DNA of 64,000 nucleotides from Octopus vulgaris. Taxonomy: Eukaryota. A program made the position numbers and the translations under genes. This document shows, one piece after another, positions 3,269 to 58,966 of this stretch (position 1 is the first letter of the stretch; each line of letters opens with the position of its first letter). The notes beneath the pieces are model-generated. The model was not told where the DNA came from, ran no database searches, and worked only from the letters and a program-made list of their open reading frames with translations. The DNA is taken from assembly GCA_951406725.2 (NCBI GenBank), contig OX597818.1, positions 89,652,001-89,716,000 on the forward strand, written 5' to 3'.

Positions 3269-3448
3269 GTATGTGTGTGTTTGTGTTTGTCCTCCACCAC
3301 CATCGCTTGACAACCAGTGCTGGTGTGTTTAGGTCCCCGTAGCGGTTCGGCAATAGAGTCCGGCAGAATAAGACCCTAGCTTTTAAAAACATAAGTACTG
3401 GCGTTTATTCATTCGACTTAAAATTCTCCAAGGTGGTGCCCCAGCATG
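2946..3448 (+). mobile_element. SINE family A, 3'-truncated at the junction with LINE sequence
   Basis: Full head GGCGCAGGCGTGGCTGTGTGGTAAG, internal (CTAT)n/(TA)n; breaks off at GGTGCCCCAGCATG where other copies continue GCCGCAGTC. Confidence 0.8.
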
Positions 3449-3721
3449 AAAGTTACAACATAAATGTAATACCAAGTGCAACCAAAAGTATCAGTGGGGA
3501 GGCGGGGCTCGTGGGGTCCGAGCTAAACCCGCACCCACTCCACCCGTAATGTCTTCCGGTCTGTCCTATCACTCGATTTCTGTCCATTTATTGTTATTCA
3601 TGAAAATTTTTAAACCCGATTTATTGTAAAAACCCATTCGTTTGTCTGACCCCATCATCAGATTGTATTGTCCCATCTGTGTTCGCCCCTTGTGGGTAAT
3701 AATAAAACAACATGGAGGAAA
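3446..3721 (+). repeat. 5' copy of a 276-bp direct repeat (last ORF2 codons + LINE 3'UTR + 15-bp flank)
   Basis: Identical to 8704-8979 except one C/T (GTCCTATC vs GTTCTATC). Confidence 0.95.
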
Positions 3722-3939
3722 TCAATTTATTGCGTTATTAGTAAGTTGATATATATTTTTGCTCACATACTACTTATCTCTGTTATTATATACTGTTGGT
3801 CTACCTTTTTTTGTCCATTGTTGTCTAACGGACGAAGTCAACCTTCGCGCGAAGACTTCGCGTTGGTGTTCCCCCCTCAGTGGGGGAAAACTACAATCAA
3901 TTTAGATTACCAAAGGCTTGTTAAAGCCATTTGTTCAAG

Positions 3940-4947
3940 ATGGAGTCCCCCATCACTTATTCGCCCGTGACGAGCGAGGATGAATACCCGGCGTTGTCGC
4001 CAAGTAAAAAAGAGGCGTTGTCGCCAAGAAAAAAAGAGGCGCTGTCGCCGAAGAAAAAAGAGGCGGCGTCGCCCAAGAAAATGGTAAAACCAGTACCAGC
4101 ATCAACTCCAGCAAAAAAATTCGCTGAAGTGGCTGGGAAGAAAATTAAAAAAATTAACGTGGACAACCTGGGAAAACATGCGGACTGTGTGTCAAAAGAG
4201 GGCACGGAAGTAACCGTGGCTTCAAACGCCCAAATACAGGAGGATATTTCGAATAGGAGAATAATCTATAAGACATTCAGTATAACAAACAGAGCAATCC
4301 AAAAAATAGAGGAGAAAAAGATTGAAAACTGCTTAAAGCCAATAATGGATAAAATTACGTATATCAATCGAGGGAAGAAATACGGCACAGTGGAGGTGAG
4401 ATTCACGTCAGAGGAGGTAGCGAAGAAGCTATCCATGGAACCCATAAAAGCGGAGGATATTGTTCTCCTACCCCTGTATAAAGGCAAGAGAACTTCCAAG
4501 ATCACAATGAACAACATCCCGCCAGAAGCGGATGCCGAAGTCCTAGTGGCAGCAGTTATGGTAGGCCTGGAGGAAAAAATAAACATCCTCCAGGCCACCG
4601 TAGAAGAAGAAGAATTCTGGAAAGGGCAAAAGATAATAATAGCCATACAAGCAGAAGTACAAACCCTGGAAGAGATCCCAGAGACTCTAAGGATAAGCGA
4701 AGATGAAAGAGTCACAGTCTTCGTAGAGGGCAGAAAGCCGAGGTGCTTCGGCTGCGGTAAGAAGGGGCATGTAAGGGCGGAATGCCAGCCCCAACCCAAA
4801 CCGCAGGAAGCACCTAAGCCAAAAGGAAAAGAAGACAATGTGTCACCAGAAGCAGCGTCAGACGGCCCAGAAGGGAAGACTGAAGGTGTGGAGGTGATGG
4901 TAACAGCAGAACCAGCGGCGGAGAAAAAAAGAGCGAGGAAAAGATAA
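3940..4947 (+). CDS. LINE ORF1p (gag-like nucleic-acid-binding protein, CX2CX4HX4C zinc knuckle); probably extends to 5316 through three 1-bp homopolymer frameshifts
   Basis: First ATG at 3940; CFGCGKKGHVRAEC knuckle; N-terminal SPKK-type repeats; lies directly upstream of ORF2. Confidence 0.88.
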   Translation: MESPITYSPVTSEDEYPALSPSKKEALSPRKKEALSPKKKEAASPKKMVKPVPASTPAKKFAEVAGKKIKKINVDNLGKHADCVSKEGTEVTVASNAQIQEDISNRRIIYKTFSITNRAIQKIEEKKIENCLKPIMDKITYINRGKKYGTVEVRFTSEEVAKKLSMEPIKAEDIVLLPLYKGKRTSKITMNNIPPEADAEVLVAAVMVGLEEKINILQATVEEEEFWKGQKIIIAIQAEVQTLEEIPETLRISEDERVTVFVEGRKPRCFGCGKKGHVRAECQPQPKPQEAPKPKGKEDNVSPEAASDGPEGKTEGVEVMVTAEPAAEKKRARKR

Positions 4948-5325
4948 ATGAGGAGGGGTGGGCAAAAATTATCGGAAAAAAAAAAGAAAAACGGAAACCA
5001 CCCCTCCCAGAGTAATTTTAAAAAAGAAAAAAGAGTCAATGAACTCATATATGGCCGTAAAAGCATCAAATAGCAGACTCGGAAACGTGTTGGCAGCCAT
5101 GGCCAATGTGAAGAGAGTAGAGAAAAAAATGACTTTGTAATTTACAAAATAGACCGGAAGGATTACGGGCGGATAAAGTCAGAATTCTTCCATGACGTAG
5201 GCCCACTTAGGTTGGATGTAACATCTCCACATATATTCGAGGGCCTACGTCAGACTCCCCCACGAGGCCCAGAAAAAGAGAAGGAAGAAGAAGAAAAAAC
5301 CGAACCACTGATATAAAGGTAAGTA

Positions 5326-8300
5326 ATGGATTACATTTATGTTGGTTGTTTAAATGTGCGCGGCCTGGGAGCAGGCTGGAAGCAAGGTCGCTTCCTGCAT
5401 GATATCAGGTCGCGTAATTTAGATGTTATTGTTGCTACAGAAACCCGGCTAGAGGGGCCAAGAGGTCTACTCCCGCTGTTTGACGGCTACGAGAGTTTTT
5501 TCTCTCCTGGCAGTCCTACAGGCGGGAGTGGGGTGTTGGTCCTATTAAAAAGAAACCGGGTTTCTGAGAAAAAGTTAATTTTTGCAGATCCAGAAGGTAG
5601 GCTGGTCGTCATGGATTTGACGTTCAGTAATGGTAAAGTTATCAGACTGGTTGCAATTTACGCACCCAACCATACAGGGCAAAGTGATTATTTTCGTGAA
5701 CTAGAAAACTTTCTTGGTACTTCGCATTCATTAGTGGTGCTAGGAGACTTTAACACAATTTGCAAAGCGGATGTAGATTATGTTGGCTCGTGTCCAGATA
5801 GAAAAGGCAACAGTGGCTTCATGGAACTGCTAAGCCGCTTTGAGCTAGCAGATCCTTATAGGCTGGAATTTCCGAACGCTCCATTGTGGACATGGTCAAA
5901 CAGCGACGGATCTTCCAGGTCGTATCTAGATAGAATACTAATTAGAAAAGTAGACAGTAAAATAGCTAAGTGTCCACAGTTTTACCCGATCAGCTACAGT
6001 GATCATAAAATGGTCACTTGTAAGCTTGACATAGATAAGGTTAAAAATAGAGGATCCGGTTACTGGAAACTTAATACGTCCCTTTTGGCGATTAAGGAGT
6101 ACAAAGACCGGATTAGGAATATAATTCAGAGGGCACTATCTGGTACCATCATTAATAACAAATGGTGGTACGCCCTCAAACGAGCCATCAAGTTTGAGTC
6201 TATTAGATATAGCATAGGAGTAGTGGCTAGAGAGGCTAGAAGGGAAACTACTCTAGTTAAGGAATTAGAGGAAGCCATGAAAACTGGCTCTGCGGCTCAG
6301 GTGGCGGCCAAGAGACTGGTGTTAAACCAGCACCTCGAGGCCAAACACATGGGCTGCATTGTCAGGGCTAGAATCCGTCATATGGGATGTGAAGGAATCA
6401 ACGCCGTGAGATGGGCCCGAGTGGTGGAAGCTCAGCATGGTAACGATGCCACGATTCGATCTTTGACGAACCAACAAGGTGAGTTGATAAACGAACCCGA
6501 GGAGATGTGTGAGGCTTTTCAGGAGCACTTCGCTCAGCTTTTCGGTGAGTGCGGCGGACTGGATAGGAGGAGGGCCTTTACGGACCTACTCGACGGTCTA
6601 CCGCGCTTATCGGGGCGAGATGCGGAGGGCTGTGAAGGGCCAATCACGCCTGAGGAGGTGGTTGAGGCAATGGCGGACTGCGGCGCGGGCAAGGCGCCGG
6701 GTTTGGATGGTCTACCCTATGAGTTATATAAGAGTATGCCAGACTTGTTCGGGCACCTACTGGCGGAGGTCTACGCGAACTGGCAGCAGAACGGGCTTAT
6801 ACCCAGATCTGTGCGCCGGGGAGTAGTGACTCTCGTCAGAAAGGACCCGAGCAAGGGGGAGTGCATTGATAATTTCAGGCCCATCACTCTGCTAAACACA
6901 GAGTTGAAGATTTTGGCCAAAGTGTTATCGAAAAGATTGGCGCGTGTCGCGGATGGTCTGATCGGAGGGGCACAGACATGTGCCGTTCCGGGCAGATCCA
7001 TTCAGGATAATCTCCATCTAATGCGGTACACTATAGAGGGGTTTAATAGTGATTCTGGCAAGGGTGGGGCACTGGTCCATTTAGACCAATCTAAAGCTTT
7101 TGATAGGGTCGACCATCGTTACCTGGTATCTGCCCTGGCACAGTTCGGGCTGAGCCTTGGATTCCTCAGGTGGATTATCGAAATTTATGATAACATCGAC
7201 TCGGTAGTTCGGGTGAACGGCTTCTTGTCGAAGCCGTTCAAAATCAAACGCTCGGTTCGTCAAGGGTGTCCGCTCTCCCCGCTTTTGTACGTGATGGCTC
7301 TTGAGCCATTACTGCGAAAACTGAGCGGCATCCCGAGACAGCCAGGTAATGGAAAATCAGTGTCAGCGTACGCGGATGACATCACCATCATCGTAACCGA
7401 AATGGACCACCTATGTAAAGTAGGCAAGGCCATAGAGGTGTACGAGACGGTGACAGGAGCAAAAGTTAATCGCGAAAAGTCAGTCGGCTTGCAACTCGGC
7501 ACCTGGAGAGGCAAGTCGATGCCTCCTGACAGCGTCGTGGGACGTTGGACGGAGGGTCCGATTAAACTGCTAGGGGTCTGGTTCGGTCCAGACCTCCAAA
7601 TAGAGAAGAATTGGGGCGAGGTAACGAGCAAGGTGGCTGCAGTAGCCAAGACCTGGTCTTGGCGGTGGCTATCCCTGAAAGGGAGGGCGGAGGTGGCCAA
7701 TGTGTTTATCGCATCGGTTATCACCTACCGCCTTTCCGTCGTTCCTTGCCCTGATTCGTGGTTGATCAAGTTGGAAAGACAGCTCTTCTACTTCTTGTGG
7801 AAGGGCGGGAAACCACTTGTGAAACGCTCTACTTGCTGTCAACAACCGTTAAAGGGTGGGCTAGGGATGCCTTGGCTGATGATGCGCAGACATGCGCTGA
7901 GGTTAAGACATCTGTGGCTCTACCTGGATGGTGAACGGGTGTGGTCTTTGCTAGCAAAACTGATGTTTCCCAAGTTCACTAGTTTCGGTGGATGGGAAAC
8001 CTGGCTGAATCGTAGATCGAAACTTGGTACTTGGTACACGGAGTGTCGCAAGGCTCTCCTGCTATTCCGTCGCTCGGGCAACGCCTGCGGTGGGGGTTCC
8101 ACCACATTCTTCTATAGAGGGTTGGTAGAGGCGGAATGTGAAGATACCTTGGGGGAAACCCTAGGTCTCGACGATAATCAGCTGGCCAGTCTGTTCCGAC
8201 GTACGTTCGAGCCAAGGACACTGGACAACTTCCAGAAGTCTCTGGCATGGCAATGCTACAGAGGAGCTCTACCTGTTCGGGATAAACTCGCAAGGCACGG

Positions 8301-8721
8301 TGGCCAAGACAGTCCGATATGTCCAAGATGCGGGCGGGATAGGGAAACCGTCCCGCACGCGATTGTTCATTGTCCGGACGTGTCTGAGGTGTGGGTTTAT
8401 GCCGAACACCTGTTGTCAGGTACACGAAGAGTACAGCTGTCGACTGAGTCGATTACAAAAATTGACCCACCGGATTTCCTCGTGAATGAAGGTAAGTTTC
8501 GTTTTCTCGTTGTAGTAGCAATCGCGAAAGAGGTGATATGGAAGACGAGAATGAAAGGTTTACAGTCAGGCAAGTTCATCTCCGGCCCTGGTTTGATGAA
8601 TTATTTCATCTTTCATCTGAAAAGGAAGATAGGGCTGGAGAGAATATGCCTGACTAGGAGAGCGTATGAAGAACGATGGAAGGATGTAGCACGGAAGTTG
8701 CGAATGAAAGTTACAACATAA
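5326..8721 (+). CDS. LINE ORF2p: APE endonuclease + reverse transcriptase + C-terminal zinc finger (Tx1-like), uninterrupted
   Basis: APE motifs LNVRGL, ATET, IYAPN, VLGDFN, SYLDRI, SDH; RT motifs APGLDG, FRPITLLN, DQSKAFDRVDH, QGCPLSP, YADD; CPRC...HAIVHC finger; 1131 aa without stops. Confidence 0.97.
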   Translation: MDYIYVGCLNVRGLGAGWKQGRFLHDIRSRNLDVIVATETRLEGPRGLLPLFDGYESFFSPGSPTGGSGVLVLLKRNRVSEKKLIFADPEGRLVVMDLTFSNGKVIRLVAIYAPNHTGQSDYFRELENFLGTSHSLVVLGDFNTICKADVDYVGSCPDRKGNSGFMELLSRFELADPYRLEFPNAPLWTWSNSDGSSRSYLDRILIRKVDSKIAKCPQFYPISYSDHKMVTCKLDIDKVKNRGSGYWKLNTSLLAIKEYKDRIRNIIQRALSGTIINNKWWYALKRAIKFESIRYSIGVVAREARRETTLVKELEEAMKTGSAAQVAAKRLVLNQHLEAKHMGCIVRARIRHMGCEGINAVRWARVVEAQHGNDATIRSLTNQQGELINEPEEMCEAFQEHFAQLFGECGGLDRRRAFTDLLDGLPRLSGRDAEGCEGPITPEEVVEAMADCGAGKAPGLDGLPYELYKSMPDLFGHLLAEVYANWQQNGLIPRSVRRGVVTLVRKDPSKGECIDNFRPITLLNTELKILAKVLSKRLARVADGLIGGAQTCAVPGRSIQDNLHLMRYTIEGFNSDSGKGGALVHLDQSKAFDRVDHRYLVSALAQFGLSLGFLRWIIEIYDNIDSVVRVNGFLSKPFKIKRSVRQGCPLSPLLYVMALEPLLRKLSGIPRQPGNGKSVSAYADDITIIVTEMDHLCKVGKAIEVYETVTGAKVNREKSVGLQLGTWRGKSMPPDSVVGRWTEGPIKLLGVWFGPDLQIEKNWGEVTSKVAAVAKTWSWRWLSLKGRAEVANVFIASVITYRLSVVPCPDSWLIKLERQLFYFLWKGGKPLVKRSTCCQQPLKGGLGMPWLMMRRHALRLRHLWLYLDGERVWSLLAKLMFPKFTSFGGWETWLNRRSKLGTWYTECRKALLLFRRSGNACGGGSTTFFYRGLVEAECEDTLGETLGLDDNQLASLFRRTFEPRTLDNFQKSLAWQCYRGALPVRDKLARHGGQDSPICPRCGRDRETVPHAIVHCPDVSEVWVYAEHLLSGTRRVQLSTESITKIDPPDFLVNEGKFRFLVVVAIAKEVIWKTRMKGLQSGKFISGPGLMNYFIFHLKRKIGLERICLTRRAYEERWKDVARKLRMKVTT

Positions 8722-8979
8722 ATGTAATACCAAGTGCAACCAAAAGTATCAGTGGGGAGGCGGGGCTCGTGGGGTCCGAGCTAAACCCGCACCCACTCCA
8801 CCCGTAATGTCTTCCGGTCTGTTCTATCACTCGATTTCTGTCCATTTATTGTTATTCATGAAAATTTTTAAACCCGATTTATTGTAAAAACCCATTCGTT
8901 TGTCTGACCCCATCATCAGATTGTATTGTCCCATCTGTGTTCGCCCCTTGTGGGTAATAATAAAACAACATGGAGGAAA
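8704..8979 (+). repeat. 3' copy of the 276-bp direct repeat
   Basis: Matches 3446-3721. Confidence 0.95.
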
Positions 8980-9425: not shown

Positions 9426-9468
<43 letters not shown>

Positions 9469-11321: not shown

Positions 11322-11527
11322 TTTCTTTATTGCCCATAGTGGGCTAAACATAGAGGGGACAAACAAAGGGATTAAGTCAATTACATCGACTCCAGTGCAT
11401 AACTGGTACTTATTTAATCGACCCGGAAAGGATGAAAAGCAAAGTCGACCTCGGCGGAATTTGAACTCAGAACCTAACGACAGATGAAATACCACTAAGC
11501 ATCCCGCCCGGCGTGCTAACGATTCTG
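11322..11527 (-). mobile_element. SINE family B (GAGTTCAAATTCC B-box, central GCCTTTCATCCTTTCGGGGTCGAT domain, Tx1-like tail)
   Basis: Matches the reverse complement of 31205-31434; other copies near 15006, 16030-, 25200-, 37905-, 42505-, 54028. Confidence 0.8.
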
Positions 11528-12324
11528 TAAAACAGCGACACACGTGGCGCCTATAAGTTTATTTACAAGACTTAAAGAAAAAAAAGAAAAAAACGCAAAA
11601 ACAATATGCAGAAAACAAAAAAAACAACCCTTCAAGATAGTGCCCTTGTATGGACGTTGTCCAATGACTAAGACAAGTAAAAGAATATTCTTTTTTACTC
11701 TAGACACAAGGCCCTAAATTTTGGGGGAGGGTACTGGTACTTACTTTTTCGACTCCGAATGGATGAAAGGTAAAGTCGGAATGATGTGAACACTTTAAGT
11801 ATGCCTGGATGTAGTTTTGATTTCTCTACTGTCTTTTACTTGATCGATTTACCTGGCACTGTCACGAAATGGTACAGTTACCAGGAGCAATCCGTCGGTT
11901 ACGACGACGAGGGTCACAGCTGATACGATCAATGGAACAGCTTGCTCGTGAAATTAACGTACAAGTGGCTGAGCACTCCACAAATACGTGTACCCTTAAC
12001 GTAGTTCTCAGGAAGATTCAGCGTGACACAGAGTGTGACAAGGCTGCTGGCCCTTTGAATTACAGATACTACTCTTTTTTGCCAGCTGAGTGGACTGGAG
12101 CAACGTGAAATAAAGTAGTGTCTTGCTCAAGGACACAACGCGTCACCAGGAATTGAACTTACGACCTTACAACCGTGTGCCGAATGCCCTAACCACTAAA
12201 CTTCGCGCCTTCACACAGTTAACAAGTGTTTGGTAAAGGTATCTAATATGAAATGAATACACTGCAACAGTACTCTTGCAGTATTTTACTATTTAATTTA
12301 GAACTATCATATATAAAAAAAAAC

Positions 12325-13913: not shown

Positions 13914-13947
13914 TGATAATAATAATGATAATAATAATAATAATAAC
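13572..13947. repeat. (AAT)n/(GAT) trinucleotide microsatellite
   Basis: Read directly; source of the poly-N/I/L pseudo-ORFs. Confidence 0.97.
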
Positions 13948-14099
13948 TGTTTCAGATTTTGACACAAGGGGCAGCAATTTTGGGGGAGTGGATGAGTCGA
14001 ATATATTGACCTCAGTATTTCACTGGTACTTATTGTATCGATCCTGAAAGGATGAAAGACAAAGGCGAAATCGGCGGAATAATAGTAATTATAATGATT

Positions 14100-14268
14100 T
14101 CTTTTATTGGCCACAAGGGCTCAAGACATGGAGGACAATATCGAAGGACGAGTTACAGCAAAAAAAAAAAAAAAAATTACATAGACATGTAGTGTTAACA
14201 TGAATCTCGGGGAGATGCTACCACATTAAAGGATATAACAGAAGATATATAAATAGAAAGTAGAAACA

Positions 14269-14303
<35 letters not shown>

Positions 14304-14600
14304 ACAGAATCCCCAATAGTGGGGCAGTCCGCTTAGGGTATTCCGGGGTAAATCTAAAAAATCTCGGATTACTCTGACATCTCCAAGGCATGGGTAAGTG
14401 CACTCACCGGTCTTGCCTCTGTCGACCACCTTTTGATAAACACACTAGAAGGCAACACCTCCCACTCTACCCCCACCTTCCGCTTCGACTGATATTTGAA
14501 GAAATTGATGAGGGCTTGACCAGGTAGGAATGTGTCTGTCTTCAAACCTTTCAGACGTGTCCACCACACAGCCTCTTTTGCAACAGCCACTAAGCAGAGA
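14100..14600 (-). mobile_element. Tx1-family LINE 3' fragment
   Basis: VAVAKEAVWWTRLKGLKTDTFLPGQALINFFKY matches the ORF2 C-terminus; 3' end GCCCTTGTGGCCAATAAAAGAAA. Confidence 0.85.
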
Positions 14601-14601
14601 A

Positions 14602-14635
<34 letters not shown>

Positions 14636-16778
14636 TTTTTTTCTTTATATAGTTATGATTTCTTAGTTGGAAAAATTATTTTTTCAGCTGACTTGATGTC
14701 CTTCCTAGTGTTCAAAATTGATCAAAACAAATGTGAAGTCCATTCAGTCAAGGTACATAACTCTAGACATAACTCTAGCCAAAGCAGAGTTACGTTTCTT
14801 GATACGAAGCTAATGTTTTTATCACCAGAATCACAAACACACGTATTTCAGCCTTTAGCATTTAAACCAGCCATATCAGGTCAAAAATATTCTACCTGTT
14901 TCATGTCAAAGCCGACCGGATCGGTCTTCTTTCATCTACTGCTCAATATTATACTAAAAATATGCTATTACATCATCGAAACTTCAACACAACGTGAATA
15001 GCATTGTGAGTTGGCAGAAACGTTAGCACGCTGGGCAAAATGCTTAGCGGTGTTTCGTTTGCCGTTACGTTCTGAGTTCGAATTCCGCCGAGGTCGACTT
15101 TGCCTTTCATCCTCTCGGGGTCGATTAAATAAGTACCAGTTACGTACTGAGGTCGATGTAATCGTAATTGTTTGTCCCCTCTATGTTTAGCCCCCTGTAG
15201 GCAATAAAGAAATAAAATTACTGAGTAATCCAAATGCGTAAAGAGTTAAGGGAGATGTATAGTCAATGTGGTTCTTTTACTGTTTCAATGTCATGAACTT
15301 ATCGGTCTCTCTTTTGCCGAATGTTTATGTCATGGGGACATCAACAAACCAACAACAGTTACCAATCGGTGGTGGGGTACAAAGACGTGGCTGTGTGTTA
15401 AGTAGGTTGCTGATCTACCACATGGTTCCGGGTTCAGTCCCACTGCGTGGAATCTTGGACAAGTACCTTCTACTATAGCCTCGGGAAACTGAATGAAGCC
15501 GTCGTATATATATATTTGTGTGTCTGTGTTCGTCCCCCGCCACTCTCACTTAACAACAAATGTTGGTACATTTACGTCCCTGTAACTTAGCGGTTCGGCA
15601 AAAGAGAACGATAGAATAAGTACTAGGCTTATAAAGAATAAGTCCTGGGGTCGATTTGCTCGACTAAATGCGGTACTCCAGCATGGCCGCAGTCAAATGA
15701 CTGAAACAAATAAAAAATAAAAGAATATGTGAGTTTATCTCTCTCTCTCTCTCTCTCTCTCTCCACGTAACCGACCACGCTATCAGATGTTGCACATCGC
15801 TGGTTACAATGTGCCTTTTGCTTTGTTTTAGCCTTCAAAAGATGCTATCCTGCTGGCTAGGCGAGCAGGCCAACATTCGAAAGGTGGAGTGGAGCATAGT
15901 GAAATGAAGCGCGTTGCTCAAGAACACGTCGTGCCACAGATCGTGAGTGCAACAGCCTAACCACTCCGTCACTTATTTTTAATATTAGACTGCGGCCATA
16001 CTGGGCTACCATCTTGAAGAATATTTATTTCTTTATTAACCACAGGAGGCTAAACATAGAGAGGACAAACAAAGGGATTAAGTCGATTATATCGACCCCG
16101 GTGCCTAACTGGTACCTATTTAATCGACCCCCAAAAGGATAAAAGGCAAAATCGACCTCGGCAGAATTTGAACTCAGAACGTAACGGCAGATGATATACC
16201 GCTAAGCATGTCGCCCGGCGTGCTAACGTTTCTGCCAGCTCGCCACCTTCTTGAAGAATATTAGTCGAACGAATCGACCCCAGGGCTGATTTTTCTTTGA
16301 AGTCTGGTACTTGTTCATTTGATCTTACGGAGACGTAAACACACCAACACCAAACGGTTATGAGGATAAGCAGAGACACGAACACATACAAATGACCCGC
16401 TCCTACAGTTTCCGCGTACAAAATTCATTTGCAAGACGTAAGTCTACAGTTGAAGATACTCGCTCAAAATGTCACGCTGTGGGACTGAACCCGAAACCTT
16501 GTGGTTGTAAAGAGAGCTTTTTAACCACGCTACCATGCTTGTACCAGTCTACATTGTTACAATACACCTCATATAGTGTGACAGGGTTGAACAAAACTAT
16601 AGTACAGGTTACTAGCACACACAAATCTTCCTTTGATATTTATGCGAACAGGAAATGAAACGCTACTTATGTTACCGTGCGTACTATATTACTATTAATG
16701 GCTTCAAATTTTGACACAATGCTGGGAATTTAGAAGGGGTGGGAAGTCGATTTACAGTGCTAAACTGGTACATATTCT

Positions 16779-22912: not shown

Positions 22913-25813
22913 TAAAGAGCTATAGGCTAGGCTATATAATTTTACAATTTATTTGCAAATATTGGGTCAGCTTCTCCGACATAATTTTGGATTAAATATT
23001 TTATGAACAAGGCCCTAAGCTTTTAATATTAGTTTCAAGTTTTGGCACAAGGCCAGCAAGTTCGTTAAGCATTTTGCCCAGTGAGTTAATGATTCCACCC
23101 GCTCACCTCTTTCCTAAGTCTTTGATATTAATGATATATAACTATTAACCTTGACTAGAAAATAGTACAGGTTCTCTGACTTTTGTTTAAGCTAGATTTG
23201 GTTCAAACCTGCCATGATTAGCATAGATATTTATGTTTTTGTTTTCCAGCCTTTTGTAGCTCACTGTCCCCTTATATAGAATTGCATTTAACAAACTCAC
23301 CTCAGCATATTTTTTTTAAAATGCAGGAATTTTGGGTTTTGATCTTATTGTGTGATACCTTCCTTGGGAGTGCTCTACTGTAGCACTGAGTTGACCAATT
23401 CCATTTGAGGTAATTTGGGAGATGGAAACTGCAGGAGACCCTTCACATGTATGTATATATATATACATATATATATATGTGGCACATAAAAAGCACCATC
23501 CGTCCGTGGCCGTTTGTCAGCCCCGTCTGGCACCTGTGTCGGTGGCACGTAAAAAGTACCCACTACACTCACGGAGTGGTTGGCGTTAGGAAGGGCATCC
23601 AGCCGTAGAAACACTGCTAGATCAGACTGGGCCTGGTGCAGCCTTCTGGCTTCCCAGACCCCAGTTGAACCGTCCAACCCATGCTAGCATGGAAAGCGGA
23701 CGCTAAATGATGATGATGATGATGATATATATGTGTGTGTGTGGATATAAGTCAAACTACTCAACCTATGCCAGTATAGAGGATGACAATGATATGTATA
23801 TGTCTGAATGTGTGGTGATATTTGTATTCCACAGTTGTCTGTACTCGAGTGAAGAGGTGCAGTTGTTGGCATTCCTTGTTGCCATTATGATTCTTTGTAT
23901 AACTGTATGAAGACAGACATGAGTAAAATAACAAAATATCACTTATTGACTAAATACCTGGACATTGTATGCTTCTTTTACAGAGAGTACTTTTCAACTG
24001 TGCTTTGATTTCTCAGAAATGGCTGCCGAATATTTAACAAATTACTTCATGCCATCTTAAATTAAGAAAATAAACATTCTTATTAAAAAATGTTGGGATG
24101 GTCTCAGTTGTATTGCCATTGGTCATAGGTCTGTAATGTCAGAGCTGACATTACAGCCAATGAACAAACACACCGTATAGAAAGTTACAGAAGTTATGTA
24201 CGTTCATCTGATATATATGTATGTGTGTATGTGCGTGTGTGTGTGTGTATATTCTTTTTTTTAAATTTTTGCGCCCTTTTCAAGCCTAGCCAGGCTCATG
24301 GGCCCAGTTTCCCAGTTTCTGTGGCGTATGTGTTCCCTCCAGCTGGACGAGACACCAGTCCATCGCAGCGTTACCCAAGAAACAGGAAGAAAGAGTAAGA
24401 GAAAGTTGGGGCGAAAGAGCACAATAGGGGTCGCCACCATCCCCTACCGGAGCCTCGTGGTGCTTTAGGTGTTTTCACTCAATAAACACACACAACGCTT
24501 GGTTTTGGAATCGAAACCGCAAGTATATATATATATATATACACACACAGACATATATATCATCATCATCATCAGCAAATGAAGTTAAACGATGCTGATG
24601 ATGTGTGTGTTTGTGTGTATGTATCTCTTATCTTGACATCGTGTGATAATTGTAAATGATAGTCACTGTCATACAAGCAGTGTGATTCATTTCTAATATT
24701 CTGTGTGAACATATCTGGCAGTGGGGAAATATTACCTTGCTTGGAAACAGGTGAGTGTTGATGACAGGAAGGGCATCCGACTACAGAAAATTTTCCTCAA
24801 TAAACTCCGTCCGACTCATGCAAGCATGGAAAAATGAACATTAGATAATGATGGCGACAAAGGTAATCTTAATGAAGAGATTATAATTACAAGATAAAGT
24901 TGACTGAAATAACTTTAGTCATTGAGTCAGTGTTGTCTTTCCTTCACATAATTATTTCTAATTAGATTTTTGGATATTTATTACATAAAACATATTCCTT
25001 TCTATGCTAGGCACAGGGCCCAAAATTTTTGGGGTGGAGGCCAGCCGATTACATCGACCCCAGTATGCAACTGGTACTTACTTTATCGACCCCGAAAGGA
25101 TGAAAGGCAAAGCTGACCTTGGTGGAATTTGAACTCAGAGCATAAAGACAGATGAAATGCCACTAAGCATTTTGCCCTGTGTGCTAATGTTTCTTATTTC
25201 TTTATTGCCCACAAGGGGCTAAACATAGAGGGGACAAACAAAGGTATTAAGTCGATTAGATCAACCCCAGTGCCTAACTGGTACTTAATTTATCGACTTC
25301 GAAAGGATGAAAGGCAAAGTCGGCCTTGGCGGAATTTGAACTCAGAATGTAACGGCAGACGAAATACCACTAAGCATTTCGCCCGGTGTGCTAATGTTTC
25401 TGCCAGCTCGCCGCCTTGATTACATTAAAAATATGAAGACTCTTTTATCTTTTCCTTTTTACTTGTTTCAGTCATGAGACTGTGGCATTACCTTTAGAAA
25501 TATTTAGTCAGCTGTATCAACCCCAATATTTATTTTTTTAAAGCCAGGTACTTATTCTATTGGTCTGTTTTGTCGAACCGCGAAGTTACTGGGACAAAAA
25601 CACACCAGCACTGATTGTCAAGCAGTGGTGGTGGTGGGAGGGAACAAAACACACACACACACAAATATATATACATAGTTTGCTTATCAACCACATGGTT
25701 CCAGGTTCAGTCCCACTGCATGGCACCTTGATCAAGTGTCTTCTACTATAGCCTCAGACTGACCAAAGCCTTGTGAGTGGATTTGGTAGACAGAAACTAG
25801 AAGAAGCTCATCG

Positions 25814-33089: not shown

Positions 33090-34419
33090 GCTGAGGAGGA
33101 ACCCAAACAGAAACATACGCTAGAGAATTTCAAGTTCATAATTCTGCTGTACACGCGTGAAAATTTTGGCAAAGGCATTCGCCAAACAGGAGGAAAGAGG
33201 AAAGCAGGGCTGGTCCTTTTGATGCCATGGTAACATCGGATCAGTGGGGTTCTTCGATTGTTCTTAGGCCAATATCCTATTCTAAGAACGTTTAAAATTT
33301 TTATACAATGTGTAGAATTTCATTTTTAATTTCATTTTTCTTTTCCAACTTTTCTTTGAATTTATGTGTAAAACGCGACACAATTTTGTAATCTGTCAAT
33401 GTAATGTTCTCTCACATGTAGTCTTTGTGGCAAATAAAAGAAATCCAATTCCTCATTCTCTTCTTCTTCTTCTTTTTCTGAAGGTGGATTAGCTGAATCG
33501 TTTGATATTAGCGAGTTCGAATCCTGCCAAGGTCAACTGTGTCTTTCATCTTCAGGGACGATAGATTAAAACACCATTCAAAGAGTGGGGTCAATGGTGT
33601 TCCCCAATGGTAGAATCATTAGCACGCCGGGCGAAATGCTTAGGAGTATTTCGTCTGACATTATGTTCTGAGTTCAAATTCCGACGAGGTCGACTTTGCG
33701 TTTCATTTTTTCGAGGTCGATAAGATAAGTACCAGTTGAGTACTGGGGTCGATGTAATCGACTAGCCCCCTCCCCCATAGTTTCAGGCCTTGTGCCTACA
33801 GCAGAAACGATTATTATTATTAAAGATTTATATTGTCATTGATCTCGATCACATCATGAAGAACCTCCTCCTCCTCCTTATCATCATCATCACTACCAGC
33901 AACACCACCATCACCCCAATCGCCACGGCGACCACCACCACCACCGCTAAGGGAACCTCTACGTGGTCTCTGGACATGCTAGGTATAGGAAACAAATTTC
34001 CCTCAAATCACAATTCCTACCGGATAATGTGGTGCTGGGTTTCTCTGTATTCTGGAAAATGACTAGTTGGTCACGGTTGGAATGTCTCTCACCATAATAA
34101 GCCTGCTCAAGCAGGAATGATCAAGGGCGAAAAAAACCCCCCACCCCTTTTACCACCATCATCGCCATCTCCCAACACCATCACCACCACCACCTCCTTC
34201 TCCTCCAGGATGTAACACAAACGAAAAGTGACCGAATGGAAAGAATTGATGACTGCATCAAGCAGTCAGAGCAGAATCCGCAGCAGTAGCAGAGGAAGGA
34301 CAGCAACGACATCTATAGACAGAAGCTACTGTCATGGCCGTCTTGACAAAAGAAGTAAAAAGGAAAAGTAAATAATAAAAAAATAAAAACAAGACATCTT
34401 CCCAGTTGTTCCTGCTTCC

Positions 34420-37801: not shown

Positions 37802-38782
37802 CTTCTATATAATAAATTAATTTTACTCTGCTATGTATTGAGTACCTTATTTACTGTGGTTAACCCCGAATCAACCCGGGACCTACATATATATATATAT
37901 ATATTTCTTTACTGCCCACAAGGGGCTAAACATAGAGGGGGACAAACAAGGACAGACAAAGGGATTAAGTCGATTACATCGACCCCAGTGCGAAACTGGT
38001 ACTTAATTTATCGACCCCGAAAGGATGAAAGGTAAAGTCGACCTCGGCGGAATTTGAACTCAGAACATAAAGACAGACGAAATACCGCTAAGCATTTCGC
38101 CCGGCGCGCTATCGTTTCTGCCAGCTCGCTGCCGTATATATATGCATGTGTAGATGAATCTAGACCAAATTAGATGCGCATACGCGCGCGTGCTTACACA
38201 CACACACACACACACATACTCACACACACAGGTCGCTAGCTCGTTGAATTGAGTGAGCGAACTGATTTGAATTGGTAAAGTTAACAACTTAACAAACTGA
38301 CCCATTCGGAAAGGGATGGGGGACAAGAGACAAGTTATTCATTATTCTTATTTTTATTGATTTTGGAAGATGTATGTATGTATATATGTATGGTTAACGG
38401 AGTGTTATATGCAACAAAAAACAGGGTAATTAAAATGAAAAGATTAAAATGAAAAGATTAAAACATACAAACATAAATGGCGGTGCCCCAGCATGGCCAC
38501 AGCTCGTGAGCTGAAACTAGAATCAATCAATCAATACAAACATTTACTATCAAGTATGTTCTATATTCTCTTTTACTCTCTTTTACTTGTTTCAGTCATT
38601 TGACTGCGGCCATGCTGAAGCACCGCCTTTAGTCGAGCAAATCAACCCCGGGACTTATTCTTTGTAAGCCCAGTACTTATTCTATCGGTCTCTTCCGCCG
38701 AACCGCTAAGTGACGGGTACGTAAACACACAGGCATCGGTTGTCAAGCAATGCTTGGGGGACAAACAGACATACAAACACAT

Positions 38783-39499: not shown

Positions 39500-39639
39500 A
39501 TGACGGTCTTCTTCCACTCATAAGGCTTTGGTCGGCCCGCGGCTATAGTAGAAGACATTTGCCCAAGGTGCCACGCAGTGGGACTGAACCCGGGACCATG
39601 TGACTGGTAAGTAAGCTACTTTATTTCATGAAAATTCGC

Positions 39640-40075
39640 CATTAAGGCGTTACATAGAGGGGACATACAAGTACAGACAAACATATAGGGTGTAGTAGCT
39701 TAAATCGTTTTAGTATTTACAATATAATGTGTACACTATTTACTATATAAAGTTTACAAATTCAATATTACACAGTAGGGCAAGGAACCCAGCCATCTGG
39801 GTAGAACCTTTACTTCTTGATCCGGCCACACTTACCTGGTGCCAAATATACCCAGCTTGCAAGCTACAGACTTCCATCTTTTCACAAACATATCTCATGA
39901 CAGACACCTCTTCTCCAGCCTGATCTTACTACCGAGGTGGTAACTAAAAAAGTTAACCAACCCCTGGCCGGATACAAAGGTACCTGTCATTATACCTTTC
40001 GTACGCGTCTTCCATACTGTTTCTTTCAGTATGGCTACTACGCAGGAAAAACAAGCCTTACTTTCCCTGCTGAGG
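39640..40075 (-). mobile_element. Tx1-family LINE 3' fragment
   Basis: SREsKACFSCVVAILKETVWKTRTKGIMTGTFVSGQGLVNFFSYHL matches the ORF2 C-terminus; TTGTATGTCCCCTCTATGT tail. Confidence 0.8.
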
Positions 40076-40825
40076 ACCACACAGCCACTCCTATATATAT
40101 ATAATTTCCTAAACACATATCCACTTGAAATATGGTTGCATTTCCAAGGAAAGTAAAGAATATATATCTATCTGTCTATCTATATCAATGTTTTTTTTTA
40201 ATGTTCAATTAAAAGACTCCGCCGGTTGCGACGACGAGGGTCCCAGCTGATACGATCAACGGAACAGCTTGCTCGTGAAATTAACGTGCAAATGGCTGAG
40301 CATTCCACAGACACGTGTACCCTTAACGTAGTTCTCGGGGATAATCAGCGTGACACAGAGAGTGACAAGGCTGACCCTTTGAAATACAAGTACAACTCAT
40401 TTTTGCCAGCTGAGTGGACTGGAGCAACGTGAAATAAAGTGTCTTGCTCAAGGACACAACGCGTCGCCGGGAATCGAACTCACAACCTTACGATCATGAG
40501 CCGAATGCCCTAACCACTAAGCCACGCGCCCTCACTAATGTTCAATTATAATAAAAATGATTTTACATTAATCTGATGTACTTGTTTTTTTTTGTTTTTG
40601 TTTTTTTTTCTTTTGTAAAATACAAATTTGTTATTCATATACAAGAATTTTGTTGACAATGATCTCGAAGTTTCAACCAGCTAAGCCGTCGACCACTCCA
40701 TTTTTGCCAACTTGTGAACTGGAGGAACATGAAATGTAGTGGTTTGCTTATGAACAACGCATTGTCCGGTCTAGGAATTGAAACCATAGTCTCATGATCG
40801 TGAATGCAACACCCTAACCACTAAA

Positions 40826-42504: not shown

Positions 42505-42906
42505 TATTTCTTTATTGCCCAGAAGGGGCTAAACACAGAGGGGACAAACAAGGACAGACAAAGGGATTAAGTCGATTACATCAACCCTAGTGCGTAACTG
42601 GTATTTTATTTATCGACTCCGAAAGGATGAAAGGCAAAGTCGACCTCGGCGGAATTTGAACTCAGAACGTAACGGCAGACGAAATACCTATTTCTTTACT
42701 ACCCACAGAGGGGTCAAACAAGGACAGAAAACCAATTAAGTCGATTACATCGACCCTAGTGCGTAACTGGTACTTTATTTATTGACCCCGAAAGAATGAA
42801 AGTCAAAGTCGACCTCGGTGGAATTTGAACTCAGAACGTAGCGGCAGACGAAATACCGCGAATCGTTTCGCCCGGCGTGTTAACGATTCTGCCAGCTCGC
42901 CGCCTT
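42505..42906 (-). mobile_element. SINE family B head-to-tail dimer with a single 14-bp TSD
   Basis: TSD TGAAGTCAGCTTCT at 42491 and ~42907; internal junction GAAATA|GGTATTTCG. Confidence 0.85.
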
Positions 42907-47400: not shown

Positions 47401-47736
47401 ATTTATACCATAACAAAAACACAAGAGAATGATTGCTGCTTTAGATTCGGTTTGATTCCTAGCTGTACCGTTTCACTCAAACCCCCGTTAATGTCTCCCT
47501 TTCATTTTACTCATAACCTCCTTAAAATGTAAGATCTCATTTTTACGTAAAAAAACCCCCAAATATATAAACAAAAAAAAAACATAACGTAAGTGAAGAT
47601 TCTTAAACGATTTCAATCTCTAGTTGAATTTAATTTACATTTTTTATCTTTTACTTGTTTCACTCATTGGACTGCAATCATGCTTGGGAACTATCTTGAA
47701 GAGCTTTAGTCCAACAGATCAAGCCCAGTATTAGGG

Positions 47737-49445
47737 CTACCTGCTGTCGTCTCTTCTGTGCGTATTGACACTCGAGCCACTGCTGCAGAAACTGGAACAG
47801 CTAAGGGGCATCCCTTTCCAACTGGGACAAGGAAGGGTAGTGTCGACATACGCGGACGACGTCACTGTCATGGTGTCGGACGCCTCCGAAGTGGAAACGG
47901 TCGGAACCATCCTAAAGGAATATGAGTCCGTTGCAGGTGCTAAAATCAACGCCGACAAATCGGTGGGTTTGCGGTTGGGCTCCTGGAGACGGTGTCGTCG
48001 CACGCTGCACCGACGGGCCAGTTAAATTGTTCGGGGTCTGGTTTGGTCTCGACCTCCAGGTTGATAAAAAAATGGGCAGAAATGGGCTGAGAGGAAGTTG
48101 TCCTTGAAAGGTCGGGCGGAGATGGCGAATGCTTACATCTCCGTATTTCATTTATCGCCTGACCGCCGTGCCTTGTCCCGGTTACTGATTGAACAGGTTG
48201 GAATGTCTCTTGTTTAAATTCTTATGGAGAGGATGCGCTCCAATTATCAGGTGGTCAGCCTGTTGCCAGTATCCTCTGAGTGGCGGATTAGGTATGCCGT
48301 CACTCCTAATGCGCAGATACGTTCTTAGGTTATTCCACCTGCAACGATTTCTGGACGGAGAGCGTGTGTGGGCTCCGTCTGAGAGGCTCGTCTTTTCGCT
48401 GCTCGTCTCCTTGACGGAGTTGAGTGAAGATAAAAACCGAGACTGGGCGCCTGGCACCTAGAATGTTATCAGGTGCTCACATCTCTCTAGCAGTAGGGCG
48501 GTGGGATCGGTGGATGTTCTGCTTTAGAAATGTATAGAGCATTAGTTGCGGGGAAGTGCAACGACGCTCTCGGGGAGACTCTGGGCGTCGACAAGAACGA
48601 ACTGGCTAGTCTGTTCCGGTCAAGAACTATCATGAATAATTTCCAGATATCCTTGGCCTAGCAGTGCTACCGGCGGGCGCTACCGGTTCAAAATACACTC
48701 TACTGGCACGGATGTGCTGTCAGACGGGCTTGTCCGAGGTGTACGCAGTGACGAAACCATTCTGCACGTCCTCGTTCAGTGTCCAGGCATTGCTGACTTG
48801 TGGGGTTATGTCGAACAGCTGCTGTCACGTGTGGGGCGTTTCCGACTGTCGCCCGAATCTGTAGTGATGATCGCACCGCTGCCCTCCTCAATCAGGCAGG
48901 CAAGGCAGTTTTCCTTTGCCTGGTTGCAGTGGCGAAAGAGGCTGTTTGGTGGACAAGGCTGAAAGGCATGAGGACAGATACATTCCTATTTGGTATAGCT
49001 CTCATTGACGTCTTCAAGTTTCACTTAAAAGTTTCACTTAAAAGTTTCACTTAAAAAGGAAATAGAGAGTGGAGAGGAAAGTGCTGTCTTCGAGTGAGTT
49101 TACTGAAAGATGGTGAAAGTTGCTAAAATGGCAAGAATCAATGGTACCTCTCTAAGTGTTGACCTGTGAAGTCGGAGAGAAGGAATTGGAGAGGCCACTT
49201 GTTCCTGGGGTTTCAGAGAAATCTCAGACAGTGGCCTTCCCTAGAGGCCTTCCTGTACCAGGAGGGCCACATTTCTATCATTCTCCTGTCATTTAAAAAA
49301 AAAAATAACCCTTCTCTTTCAGTGTATACCGTGTATACTTAATTTCTTTCTTTCTTTTTTTTTAATCCTTTCATTATATGTAAACCCCCACACTTTGAAT
49401 GTCTGTCTGTGTGTTGTCTCCTCATCATTCGCCCTTGTGGCAAAG
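47737..49445 (+). mobile_element. Decayed 5'-truncated Tx1-family LINE
   Basis: LEPLLQKL...YADD...GAKINADKSVGLRLGSW, GGLGMPSLLMRR, ETILHVLVQCP; several frameshifts; 3' end GCCCTTGTGGCAAAG. Confidence 0.9.
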
Positions 49446-49839
49446 ATTATTATTAGTAATGATCAGATGAGCTGGCAGAATCGTTAGCATGCCGGGCGAA
49501 ATGCTTAGCGGTATTTCGTCTGAGTTAAGGCGGCGAGCTGGCAGAAACGTTAGCACGCCGGGCGAAATTCTTAGCGGTATTTCGTCCGCCGCTACGTTCT
49601 GAGTTCAAATTCTGCCGATGTCGACTTTACCTTTCATCCTTTTGAGGTCGATAAATTAAGTACCAGTTGAGTACCGGGGTCGATGTAACCGATTTAACCC
49701 CTCTCCCAAAATTTCAGGCCTTGTGCCTATAACAGAATGGATTTGGCAGAATCGTTAGCACGCTGGACGAAATACTTATCGGTATTTATTCAATTTTATT
49801 CAACAAAAGCAATAACAATATTTAACAAAAACATCTTTA

Positions 49840-54026: not shown

Positions 54027-55075
54027 AAGGCGGCGAGCTGGCAGAAACTTTAGCACGCCGGGCGAAATGCTTTGTGGTATTTCGTCCGCCGCTGCGTTCT
54101 GAGTTCAAATTCCGCCGAGGTCGACTTTGCCTTTCATCCTTTCGGGGTCGATAAATTAAGTACCAGTTACGCACCAGTGCGTAATCGACTTAATCCGTTT
54201 GTCTGTCCTTGTTTGTTCTCTCTGTGTTTAGCCCCTTGTGGGTAGTAAAAAAATAGGTATTTCGTCCGCCGCTACGTTCTGAGTTCAAATTCCGCCGAGG
54301 TCGACTTTGCCTTTCATCCTTTCGGGGTAGATAAATTAAGTACCAGTTACGCACTGTGGTCGATGTAATCGACTTGATACGTTTGTCTGTCCTTGTTTGT
54401 CCCCTCTATGTTTAGCCCCTTGTGGGTAGTAAATAAATAGGTATTGTGACGATGAAAGGCGGCGAGCTGGCAGAAACGTTAGCACGCCGGGCGAAATGCT
54501 ATGCGGTATTTCGTCCGCCGCTGCGTTCTGAGTTCAAATTCCGCCGAGGTCGACTTAATCCGTTTGTCTGTCCTTGTTTGTCCCCTCTGTGTTTAGCCCC
54601 TTGTGGGTAGTAAAAAAATAGGTATTATGACGATGATGGTGACGATGATGATGATGCTTGCTGATGTTGTTGTTTAGCCCCTGGTCACATACCCTCGGTC
54701 GAAGCAGAATTCTATGATCAAAGTTACTGAACACAAAACTAATTCAAATTCCGTTCTGAGTTCTGAGTTCAAATTCCGCCGAGGTCGACTTTGCTTTTCA
54801 TCCTTTCGGGGTCGATAAATTAAGTACCAGTTACGTACTGGGGTCGATGTAATCGACTTAATCCGCTTGTCTATCCTTGTTTGTCCTCTCTTGTGGGCAG
54901 TAAAGAAATAGGTATTTCGTCTGCCGTTACGTTCTGAGTTCAAATTCCGCCGAGGTCGACTTTGCCTTTCATCCTATCGGGGTAGATAAATTTAGTACCA
55001 GTTGCGTACTGGAGTAGATCTAATCAACTGGTCCCCTTCCCCAAAATTTCAGGCCTTTGTAGTAGAAAGGATTAT
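54027..55075 (+). mobile_element. Tandem array of SINE family B units
   Basis: At least five full or partial units; GGTATTGTGACGATGA repeated at 54011, 54440 and (one mismatch) 54621. Confidence 0.85.
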
Positions 55076-55490
55076 TTAGTCACAGGTCATCATTGATCGA
55101 AGTGAGTTTTGATAAAAAGTGGTCAAGACATAACAGTCCAGTTCCCCACTCCACCTGTCTTTATTCAAAGCATTATTCTATTTTAAGTCGGTAGAGTACG
55201 ATTTGAGGGAGACCCGACTTTTATTTCTTGCGGATCGATTGAGCACGTAGGGGCATCCTTTATAAGAGTGTGTAAATGTTTATGAGTGATTACAAAACTA
55301 ATCTTTTCCTTGTTTCGGTCGTTGCACTGCGGCCATACTGGGTCACTGCATGAAAGGTTTCAGTCGAACGAATCGAATTCATTTCTTCAAAGTTTGGTAC
55401 TTATTCTATCAATTCTTTAGTATCGATCTGCTAAGTTACGGTGACGTAAACAAACCAAGGCCGGTTTCCAAGCATTGGTAGCAGACAATC

Positions 55491-58782: not shown

Positions 58783-58966
<184 letters not shown>

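What the first reader, a model, noticed from the sequence alone, without database searches (positions are those of the whole stretch)
8921..8964. An abundant SINE shares its ~45-nt 3' tail and terminal stem-loop with the Tx1/L1 LINEs: candidate Tx1-SINE partnership, with a near-intact LINE in the same window
Seen: the LINE tail TTGTATTGTCCCATCTGTGTTCGCCCCTTGTGGGTAATAATAAA (8921), the SINE-B tail TTGTTTGTCCCCTCTGTGTTTAGCCCCTTGTGGGTAGTAAAGAA (31389) and the second LINE tail TTGTATTTGTCCCCTCTGTATTCAGCCCTGTGTGGCTAATAAAAGAA (61997) align, while the rest of the 3'UTRs do not. A small hairpin just before the A-rich end is kept in all subfamilies with altered pairing: GCCC-cttgt-GGGT/GGGC, AGCC-ctgtgt-GGCT, GCC-cttgt-GGC (14100-, 49431). 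Known: shared 3' tails mark stringent LINE-SINE pairs (typically CR1, L2, RTE), whereas mammalian L1 recognises poly(A). Inference: this Tx1 lineage recognises a 3' stem-loop and mobilises SINE-B. SINE-B TSDs of 13-16 bp match the 15-bp TSD of the LINE.
Basis: partly seen in the sequence, partly recalled or inferred. Interest (0 to 1): 0.8.

Follow-up and report, generated by a model that had tools for sequence, protein, structure and literature searches.

The report
Octopus SINE borrows Tx1 LINE tails
An abundant short octopus retroposon ends in the same 45-60 bases, with a small predicted hairpin, as a group of Tx1-like long retrotransposons, so it likely borrows their copying enzyme through tail recognition, an arrangement well known in other LINE groups but not found by our searches for animal L1/Tx1 elements.

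Summary
The host is an Octopus. SINE-B1 tails match the 3' tails of 6 of 6 Tx1-like LINE copies tested in the window, whose ORF2 C-termini are only 43-77% identical, while LINE-A and LINE-B 3'UTRs align nowhere else. A second subfamily, B2, has the same head and body but another tail. That tail matches a sister LINE group (ORF2 about 39-40% identical) found as tandem arrays in a contaminated MAG. A model built from those tails alone ranks the five B2 tails first in the window. Nearly all tails keep a 3-4 bp stem around a CUNGU-type loop, with one C-G/G-C swap. Caveats: the hairpin is not the best fold of LINE-A or of one B1 tail; the swap is a single event; the TSD argument rests on one LINE; LINE-A has a broken ORF1 and may be site-specific; no named Tx1 reference was in the tree; no genome, Repbase or Dfam check was possible. 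Verdict: new variant of a known kind (stringent SINE-LINE pair); hairpin recognition is inferred, not shown.

The parts
3722..8964 (+). LINE-A, full-length L1/Tx1-like element
   Evidence: ORFs, Pfam EN+RT+zf-RVT, flanked by 15-bp duplication
3940..4947 (+). LINE-A ORF1 with CCHC knuckle; probably frameshifted near 4930-4945
   Evidence: (motif shared with relatives lies in another frame)
5326..8721 (+). LINE-A ORF2, open, 1131 codons
8893..8964 (+). LINE-A 3' tail shared with SINE-B1; core 8921-8964; predicted hairpin 8943-8955
8965..8979 (+). 3' TSD of LINE-A, part of a high-copy target repeat
3446..3721 (+). 5'-truncated copy of the LINE-A 3' end (tail 3663-3706) plus the 15-bp TSD, directly ahead of LINE-A
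   Evidence: 99.6% identical to 8704-8979
58963..62044 (+). LINE-B, 5'-truncated, ORF2 60% identical to LINE-A; tail 61997-62044; in a (TATC)n tract
63352..63916 (+). LINE-C 3' fragment with tail; stem has one mismatch
14098..14602 (-). LINE-D 3' fragment with tail and hairpin; SINE-B fragment starts 18 nt behind it
47733..49445 (+). LINE-E decayed 3' part with tail and hairpin; SINE-B head starts 23 nt behind it
39620..40078 (-). LINE-F 3' fragment; tail matches SINE-B1 at 28 of 31 nt; variant loop
31205..31432 (+). SINE-B1 reference copy; tail about 31371-31432; 13-bp TSD
37905..38133 (-). SINE-B1 copy
54029..54617 (+). SINE-B1 cluster: dimer plus a third unit, with a 16-bp duplication present three times
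42508..42904 (-). SINE-B1 dimer; the upstream unit lacks the 5' arm of the hairpin; 14-bp TSD
16029..16247 (-). SINE-B1 copy with decayed stem; 14-bp TSD
11323..11527 (-). SINE-B1 copy
15012..15211 (+). SINE-B1 copy
24992..25415 (-). SINE-B1 unit followed directly by a SINE-B2 unit
33608..33815 (+). SINE-B2 copy: same body, second tail type
49529..49743 (+). SINE-B2 copy
54760..55076 (+). SINE-B1 unit (hairpin 5' arm deleted) followed by a B2 unit (3' arm partly deleted)
11684..11779 (-). 5'-truncated SINE-B2 copy
13945..14080 (-). SINE-B3 fragment, third tail variant, decayed stem
23025..23107 (-). internally deleted SINE-B3 with intact hairpin

Best explanation
SINE-B is a short octopus retroposon, likely tRNA-derived and Pol III-transcribed, whose interchangeable 3' tails are homologous to the 3' ends of one Tx1-like LINE lineage, and it is likely copied by that lineage's ORF2 protein, which would recognise a C-rich tract plus a predicted 3-4 bp stem with a CUNGU-type loop just before the A-rich end. 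Shown: tail homology; its restriction to the last 45-60 nt; its conservation across LINE subfamilies of 39-77% protein identity; two SINE tail types that each match a different LINE sub-lineage; and a consensus hairpin with compensatory change. Inferred: the SINE gained and later swapped tails by template switching during target-primed reverse transcription; ORF2 binds the stem generally and reads the loop (by analogy with zebrafish L2, PMC4176376 abstract); the endonuclease nicks beside A-rich ends, giving 13-16 bp TSDs and repeated insertion just behind existing tails. The driver of B1 is probably a LINE-A/F-like subfamily rather than this LINE-A copy. The octopus partner of B2 is predicted but is not in the window.
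For: Tail matches against shuffles: B1 hits 6 of 6 window LINE UTR tails and 0 of 4 array-LINE UTR ends; B2 copies hit 4 of 4 and 3 of 4 array-LINE ends. A covariance model built only from 7 array-LINE tails ranks the 5 B2 tails as hits 1-5 of 14 in the window (E 0.0007-0.05, rough) and a B3 tail 6th; its best E is 0.25 in 89 other loci. Window LINEs and array LINEs fall in one RT clade (18 rows, SH-aLRT 98, quick tree). The stem is present in 42 of 42 array loci (overlapping, one source) with loop CUUGU, CUCGU or CUAGU; a relaxed motif is in 0 of 55 outgroup loci, many 3'-incomplete. RNAalifold gives the same 4 pairs; one pair is G-C in 10 and C-G in 6 of 16 rows; 90.6% of cells pair vs 27-56% when slid. 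Motif count in the window is 14 vs 0.47 expected (motif defined after seeing the data). Summed contig depth rises 10-12-fold at the tail in 4 of 4 runs, with a SINE-body loose end in one. SINE-B starts within 30 nt behind 2 of 7 LINE tails (0.7% each by chance, post hoc). B1 tails do not match the CR1-like 3'UTR next door (80-424 of 500 shuffles as good).
Against: No functional test. The hairpin is not the minimum-energy fold for LINE-A or two B1 copies; window tails have z -1.0 to +0.9; its pair probability ranges from about 0 to 0.99 with context. The C-G/G-C swap maps to one branch, and the B1/LINE-A stem change involves a slip in a C run. One of 5 terminal B2 tails lacks the 3' arm. LINE-F has another loop, so loop reading is not strict. 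B3 (14080) matched no LINE end. Only one LINE has a clean TSD. LINE-A sits in a high-copy repeat and may be site-specific, while B1 sites share no sequence. Other octopus LINE clades could not be screened beyond one CR1-like fragment.
Confidence: 0.65

Rival explanations
1. The Tx1-like lineage does mobilise SINE-B and supplied its tails, but the hairpin is not what ORF2 reads. The tail is kept as primary sequence, or for RNA stability, 3' processing or a host protein, and priming depends on the A-rich end.
For: Weak folding of window tails and a competing pairing with the upstream C tract; one covarying event; loop variants in LINE-F and the arrays.
Against: Stem sequence differs between groups while pairing is kept; several B1 tails lack the AATAAA of the LINEs yet keep the stem; the stem is deleted in 2 of 4 internal dimer tails and 0 of 8 terminal B1 tails (too few to be significant).
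Confidence: 0.2
2. Direction reversed: relaxed, poly(A)-reading LINEs picked up SINE-B tail pieces by template switch or insertion, so the match says nothing about recognition.
For: SINE-B is abundant (24 body fragments in 64 kb) and often sits directly behind other tails; LINE-F's tail is 90% like B1.
Against: The match is at the very end of 6 of 6 window LINE subfamily copies with no SINE body ahead of it. The related tail is in all 42 array loci of an assembly in which no SINE-B was found (best E 0.26) and whose sampled flanks share no dispersed repeat with the window. Tail type follows the RT tree.
Confidence: 0.07
3. The tail came from this lineage long ago, but another LINE clade in octopus (RTE, Dong-R4, CR1) now copies SINE-B.
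For: These clades have recently active families in O. vulgaris (PMC13282606 Table 1); B1 sites do not resemble LINE-A's target.
Against: No match to the one CR1-like 3'UTR in the window; SINE-B lies right behind 2 of 7 Tx1-like tails.
Confidence: 0.06
4. Chance similarity of low-complexity TGT/CCC/AAA-rich ends.
For: The tails are short and compositionally biased.
Against: 0-1 of 200 and 0 of 500 dinucleotide shuffles reach the B1 scores; matches fall at both termini; cross-prediction by an independent model.
Confidence: 0.01

Closest known systems
Maize/sorghum ZmSINE2, ZmSINE3 with LINE1-1_ZM; Chlamydomonas SINEX-3_CR with L1-1_CR (Ohshima 2012, PMC3472496, main text read)
   Same: L1-clade LINE group with a conserved last ~45 nt shared with SINEs, a predicted hairpin with compensatory changes, conserved loop and variable stem; inferred stringent recognition.
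   Different: Plants and algae, loop UCU, stronger predicted fold (-10.8 to -17.7 kcal/mol, PMC3747384 legend). Here: an animal Tx1-like lineage, loop CUNGU, a 3-4 bp stem, and two tail types on one SINE body.
Crocodilian SINEU with Tx1-Mar (Kojima 2015, PMC4494074, passages read)
   Same: A SINE thought to be mobilised by Tx1; Tx1 families that target other repeats and microsatellites.
   Different: That pairing rests on shared target preference; no LINE sharing the SINEU-1 3' end was found there, SINEU ends in poly(A) and has snRNA heads. Here the evidence is the shared tail and hairpin.
Stringent L2 pairs: eel UnaL2/UnaSINE1 (recalled; cited in papers read) and zebrafish ZfL2-1/ZfL2-2 (PMC4176376, abstract only)
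   Same: Working model: ORF2 binds a 3' stem-loop, the stem generally and the loop specifically.
   Different: L2 clade, shown by assay and binding; nothing is assayed here.
Mollusc SINE superfamilies with swapped tails (PMC4824008 parts 2-3; PMC4758252 passages; PMC11481361 section 13)
   Same: One head and body carrying different LINE-derived tails of 35-61 bp at 72-95% identity.
   Different: Partners reported are CR1, CR1-Zenon, L2 and Nimb, not L1/Tx1; here both tails come from one Tx1-like lineage. SINE-B's body does not resemble the BivaMeta-SINE1 sequence in the supplement (by eye).
Octopus SINEs OK, OR1, OR2 (Ohshima and Okada 1994; not seen, only cited)
   Same: tRNA-derived octopus SINEs; SINE-B may be one of them or a Repbase/Dfam entry.
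   Different: Could not be compared; no partner LINE for them was mentioned in the passages read.

Membership tests
L1 superfamily (L1/Tx1) LINE | ORF2 with APE endonuclease, RT and C-terminal zinc domain, closest to L1 | tested here: met
   Pfam; best PDB hit human L1 ORF2p E 8e-65 vs R2 5e-26
Tx1 clade | RT groups with named Tx1 elements in a tree | tested here: inconclusive
   No curated Tx1 reference in the tree; of two proteins auto-named TX1, one was dropped as too short and one falls far away
Tx1 clade | Type I ORF1 (RRM/zf-CCHC) rather than Transposase_22 | tested here: met
   CCHC knuckle in sequence; Atlas neighbours zf-CCHC and ZCCHC3-like, 0.89-0.93; no Pfam hit; criterion from PMC5203782
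Tx1 clade | Target preference for repeats or microsatellites (many members) | tested here: inconclusive
   LINE-A twice at one site of a high-copy repeat; B and C in (TATC)n, D and E beside (ATT)n; few sites
tRNA-derived SINE (SINE2) | tRNA-like head with A and B boxes | tested here: inconclusive
   A-box-like and B-box-like motifs by eye against recalled consensus; ARAGORN 0 hits, Rfam no tRNA hit
tRNA-derived SINE (SINE2) | Short, dispersed, non-coding, with TSDs and 5'-truncated copies | tested here: met
   24 body fragments; 14 aligned copies 84-96% to their majority sequence; TSD of 13 bp or more in 5 of 9 B1 units
Stringent SINE-LINE pair | SINE and LINE share the 3'-terminal sequence | tested here: met
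Stringent SINE-LINE pair | Conserved 3' stem-loop with compensatory changes | tested here: inconclusive
   Consensus hairpin with one clean swap, but weak single-sequence folding
Stringent SINE-LINE pair | ORF2 requires the tail for retrotransposition | not testable with these tools
   needs reporter and binding assays
Stringent SINE-LINE pair | Concurrent activity of SINE and LINE | not testable with these tools
   no genome held
MetaSINE | 66-bp Meta domain after the tRNA head | tested here: inconclusive
   Compared by eye only with BivaMeta-SINE1 in the supplement; no resemblance; not filed here

The most novel reading that the evidence does not exclude
An old invertebrate branch of Tx1-like LINEs is a stringent-type L1-clade lineage that reads a CUNGU hairpin; one octopus SINE body has survived by swapping tails between sub-lineages of this branch; and the same tail regenerates the insertion site, so LINEs and SINEs pile up behind existing tails and build head-to-tail arrays of more than ten full-length units. 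This would be the animal test case for Ohshima's proposal that the L1 ancestor was stringent.
Probability: 0.3. Interest if true: 0.72.

Novelty: new variant of a known kind. Interest (0 to 1): 0.55.

Why it matters
L1-clade elements are the standard example of relaxed, poly(A)-reading LINEs. Ohshima's survey found only 3 L1-tailed SINEs among 58 pairs, all in plants or algae, and proposed a stringent ancestor (PMC3472496). An animal L1/Tx1-like lineage with a conserved hairpin, an open ORF2 and two natural tail variants would make that directly testable, and would allow mapping of what mammalian L1 lost. It also names a likely engine for part of the large SINE load of octopus genomes (11.6% in O. 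vulgaris, PMC13282606).

Tried and rejected
No whole genome is held, so there are no genome-wide consensus sequences or age profiles. Viral contigs: no relatives of ORF2 and no SINE-B pattern match. Rfam and ARAGORN: nothing. Earlier findings: none for this genome or these sequences; one diatom analogue that did not bear on the result. Expression: no RNA holder listed; run X2 is only guessed to be RNA. My first guess that SINE-B is a MetaSINE was dropped (by eye). The tail-like stretch at 33400-33445 could not be tied to an ORF2 remnant and matched no SINE-B tail, so it is left out of the counts of 6 LINEs. The idea that the 15-bp repeat is part of the LINE was rejected because it continues into a separate abundant repeat. 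A SINE-A vs LINE-D hit is microsatellite. Folding energy gave no support for window tails. The careful tree did not finish; the quick tree was used, and rows with under 250 aligned RT residues were dropped. Pfam did not identify the CR1-like fragment; that label is recalled from motifs.

Full report
Setting. No genome is held. A single-exon ALKBH1 ORF at 18510-19658 clusters at 90% with O. bimaculoides and O. sinensis proteins, so the host is an Octopus.

The observation. The LINE-A tail matches the SINE tail at 31389 (87.8% over 41 nt, E 1.4e-7) and the LINE-B tail (83.3% over 42 nt). LINE-A and LINE-B align over ORF2 (60% protein, 66.7% DNA) and then only at the tail. The LINE-A/SINE match extends about 16 nt further 5' across an 11-nt gap.

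The LINEs. LINE-A (3722-8964) has an open ORF2 with endonuclease, RT and zf-RVT domains, closest among solved structures to human L1 ORF2p. Its ORF1 has a CCHC knuckle and resembles zf-CCHC/ZCCHC3-type clusters, the ORF1 type that PMC5203782 links to Tx1 (passages). A motif shared with relatives lies in another frame past about 4930, so ORF1 looks frameshifted. Five more 3' parts of related LINEs (B-F) are in the window, 43-77% identical at the ORF2 C-terminus. 'Tx1-like' is my label: no curated Tx1 reference was in the tree.

More than chance. Two SINE-B1 copies gave their best local alignment at the tail of 6 of 6 window LINE 3'UTRs, with 0-1 of 200 shuffles as good. In 44 control comparisons with four other repeats, three reached 2 of 200 or fewer, and none joined two 3' ends. 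B1 tails do not match the CR1-like 3'UTR at 30860-31190. In 4 of 4 public runs, summed contig depth rises 10-12-fold at the tail, and one run shows a SINE body as the loose end there (contig depth is not a copy number).

A second tail and a second LINE group. SINE-B copies with the same head and body end in other tails (B2, five copies; B3, two). A scan with the ORF2 alignment found 42 loci at about 39-40% identity in one assembly, G001, titled as an Arenicella MAG. Its small contigs hold microsatellites and an LTR-type ORF, so I infer mis-binned animal DNA. These LINEs form one RT clade with LINE-A and LINE-B (18 of 89 rows, SH-aLRT 98, quick tree). They end in a C tract, a 4-bp stem and a second hairpin. 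Two B2 copies match 4 of 4 and 3 of 4 of these ends; B1 matches 0 of 4; B2 matches window LINEs only weakly (at best 4-11 of 200). A covariance model made only from 7 array tails ranks the five B2 tails first among 14 window hits and a B3 tail sixth, and finds nothing below E 0.25 in 89 other loci. No SINE-B was found in G001, and its sampled flanks share no dispersed repeat with the window. So the tail belongs to the LINE lineage, and the SINE has taken two versions of it (inference).

The hairpin. The stem is present in 42 of 42 array loci, which overlap and come from one source; the loop is CUUGU, CUCGU or CUAGU. A relaxed motif is in 0 of 55 outgroup loci, many of them 3'-incomplete. Against this: the swap is one event; none of 10 window tails folds better than shuffles; in LINE-A and two B1 copies the G run pairs with the upstream C tract instead; and stem probabilities run from about 0 to 0.99 with context. 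Three of 4 array tails do fold well (z -2.5 to -4.4), largely through the second hairpin. LINE-C has a stem mismatch, LINE-F another loop, and one terminal B2 tail lacks the 3' arm.

TSDs and targets. TSDs of 13 bp or more occur at 5 of 9 B1 units (1% of 300 random pairs) and 0 of 2 B2 units; of 6 LINE insertions only LINE-A has a non-microsatellite TSD. That 15-mer continues into a separate, more abundant repeat, so it is target-derived. It also follows a truncated copy of the same tail directly upstream (3446-3721). Tail, short spacer, next element is also the layout of the G001 arrays and of the B1 cluster at 54029-54617. SINE-B starts 18 and 23 nt behind 2 of 7 LINE tails (0.7% each by chance; post hoc). 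This suggests shared insertion behaviour. It also suggests that LINE-A may be site-specific, while B1 sites are diverse, so the actual B1 driver is unresolved; LINE-F matches 28 of 31 nt of the 5' part of the B1 tail.

Mechanism. Most likely (0.65): ORF2 of this lineage binds the C tract and hairpin, primes at an endonuclease nick on the A-rich end, and copies SINE RNA in trans; tails were gained by template switching. Homology and conservation are shown; binding, trans-mobilisation and Pol III transcription are inferred. Rivals: the tail is kept for another reason (0.2); the LINEs took SINE tails (0.07); another clade is the driver (0.06); chance (0.01).

Known systems. Stringent pairs are standard in CR1, L2 and RTE. 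In the L1 clade, Ohshima 2012 found 3 among 58 pairs, in maize and Chlamydomonas, with a similar 45-nt conserved end and hairpin (main text read). Kojima 2015 paired SINEU with Tx1-Mar by target preference and found no shared 3' end for SINEU-1 (passages). Mollusc surveys name CR1, CR1-Zenon, L2 and Nimb partners. The O. vulgaris repeat paper lists L1-Tx1 and 893 unclassified recently active SINE families, and has no occurrence of 'partner' or 'tail' in text or supplement. Ten searches listed no Tx1-tailed SINE. Repbase, Dfam, SINEBase and the 1994 octopus SINE paper were not seen and may already hold the elements.

Verdict. A real feature and a new variant of a known kind; interest 0.55.

Noticed in passing
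window 3446-3721 and 8704-8979: A 276-bp direct repeat (99.6%) makes LINE-A look LTR-flanked; it is a truncated 3' copy plus the TSD, i.e. two insertions at one site. In run X2 two contigs run on after the TSD, with a consensus about two-thirds like LINE-A's 5' end, which may be a sister subfamily at the same site.
   Followed up: partly
G001 contigs C3-C19 (L081-L120, L123, L125): A genome titled as an Arenicella MAG holds eukaryote-like contigs with head-to-tail arrays of full-length Tx1-like LINEs (64 of 66 motif matches, mostly 6.4-6.9 kb apart), each array with its own 12-17 nt spacer. Likely host contamination of a bacterial genome record, and an unusual array architecture.
   Followed up: partly
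window 8965-9350: LINE-A's target is an unidentified repeat with much higher contig depth than the LINE; it occurs once in the window.
   Followed up: partly
window 58783-58962, 62055-62118, 63330-63352, 63921-63949: LINE-B and LINE-C both sit in (TATC)n-type tracts; LINE-D and LINE-E lie beside (ATT)n, suggesting subfamily-specific microsatellite targets.
   Followed up: no
window 42704(-) and 54891(+): Two upstream units of SINE-B dimers have lost the 5' arm of the hairpin (2 of 4 internal tails vs 0 of 8 terminal B1 tails).
   Followed up: partly
window 18510-19658 (+): ALKBH1 is encoded by a single open frame of 382 codons, so it is intronless here; possibly a retrogene.
   Followed up: partly
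window about 30020-31190 (+): Decayed 3' part of a LINE that looks CR1-like (label recalled, no Pfam hit), ending in (TAAC)n just before the SINE-B1 at 31205.
   Followed up: partly
window 9362-9552: Two 90-bp units with a GC hairpin followed by CTAGT, resembling Helitron 3' ends (recalled).
   Followed up: no
window 46178-46932: 98-bp tandem repeat, about 7.5 copies.
   Followed up: no
L135:9521-10093: A 286-bp tandem repeat carries the same 11-nt stem-loop motif without the C tract; relation to the LINE tail unknown.
   Followed up: no
window 33400-33445: A decayed tail-like stretch with no ORF2 remnant directly upstream, followed by SINE-B pieces.
   Followed up: partly
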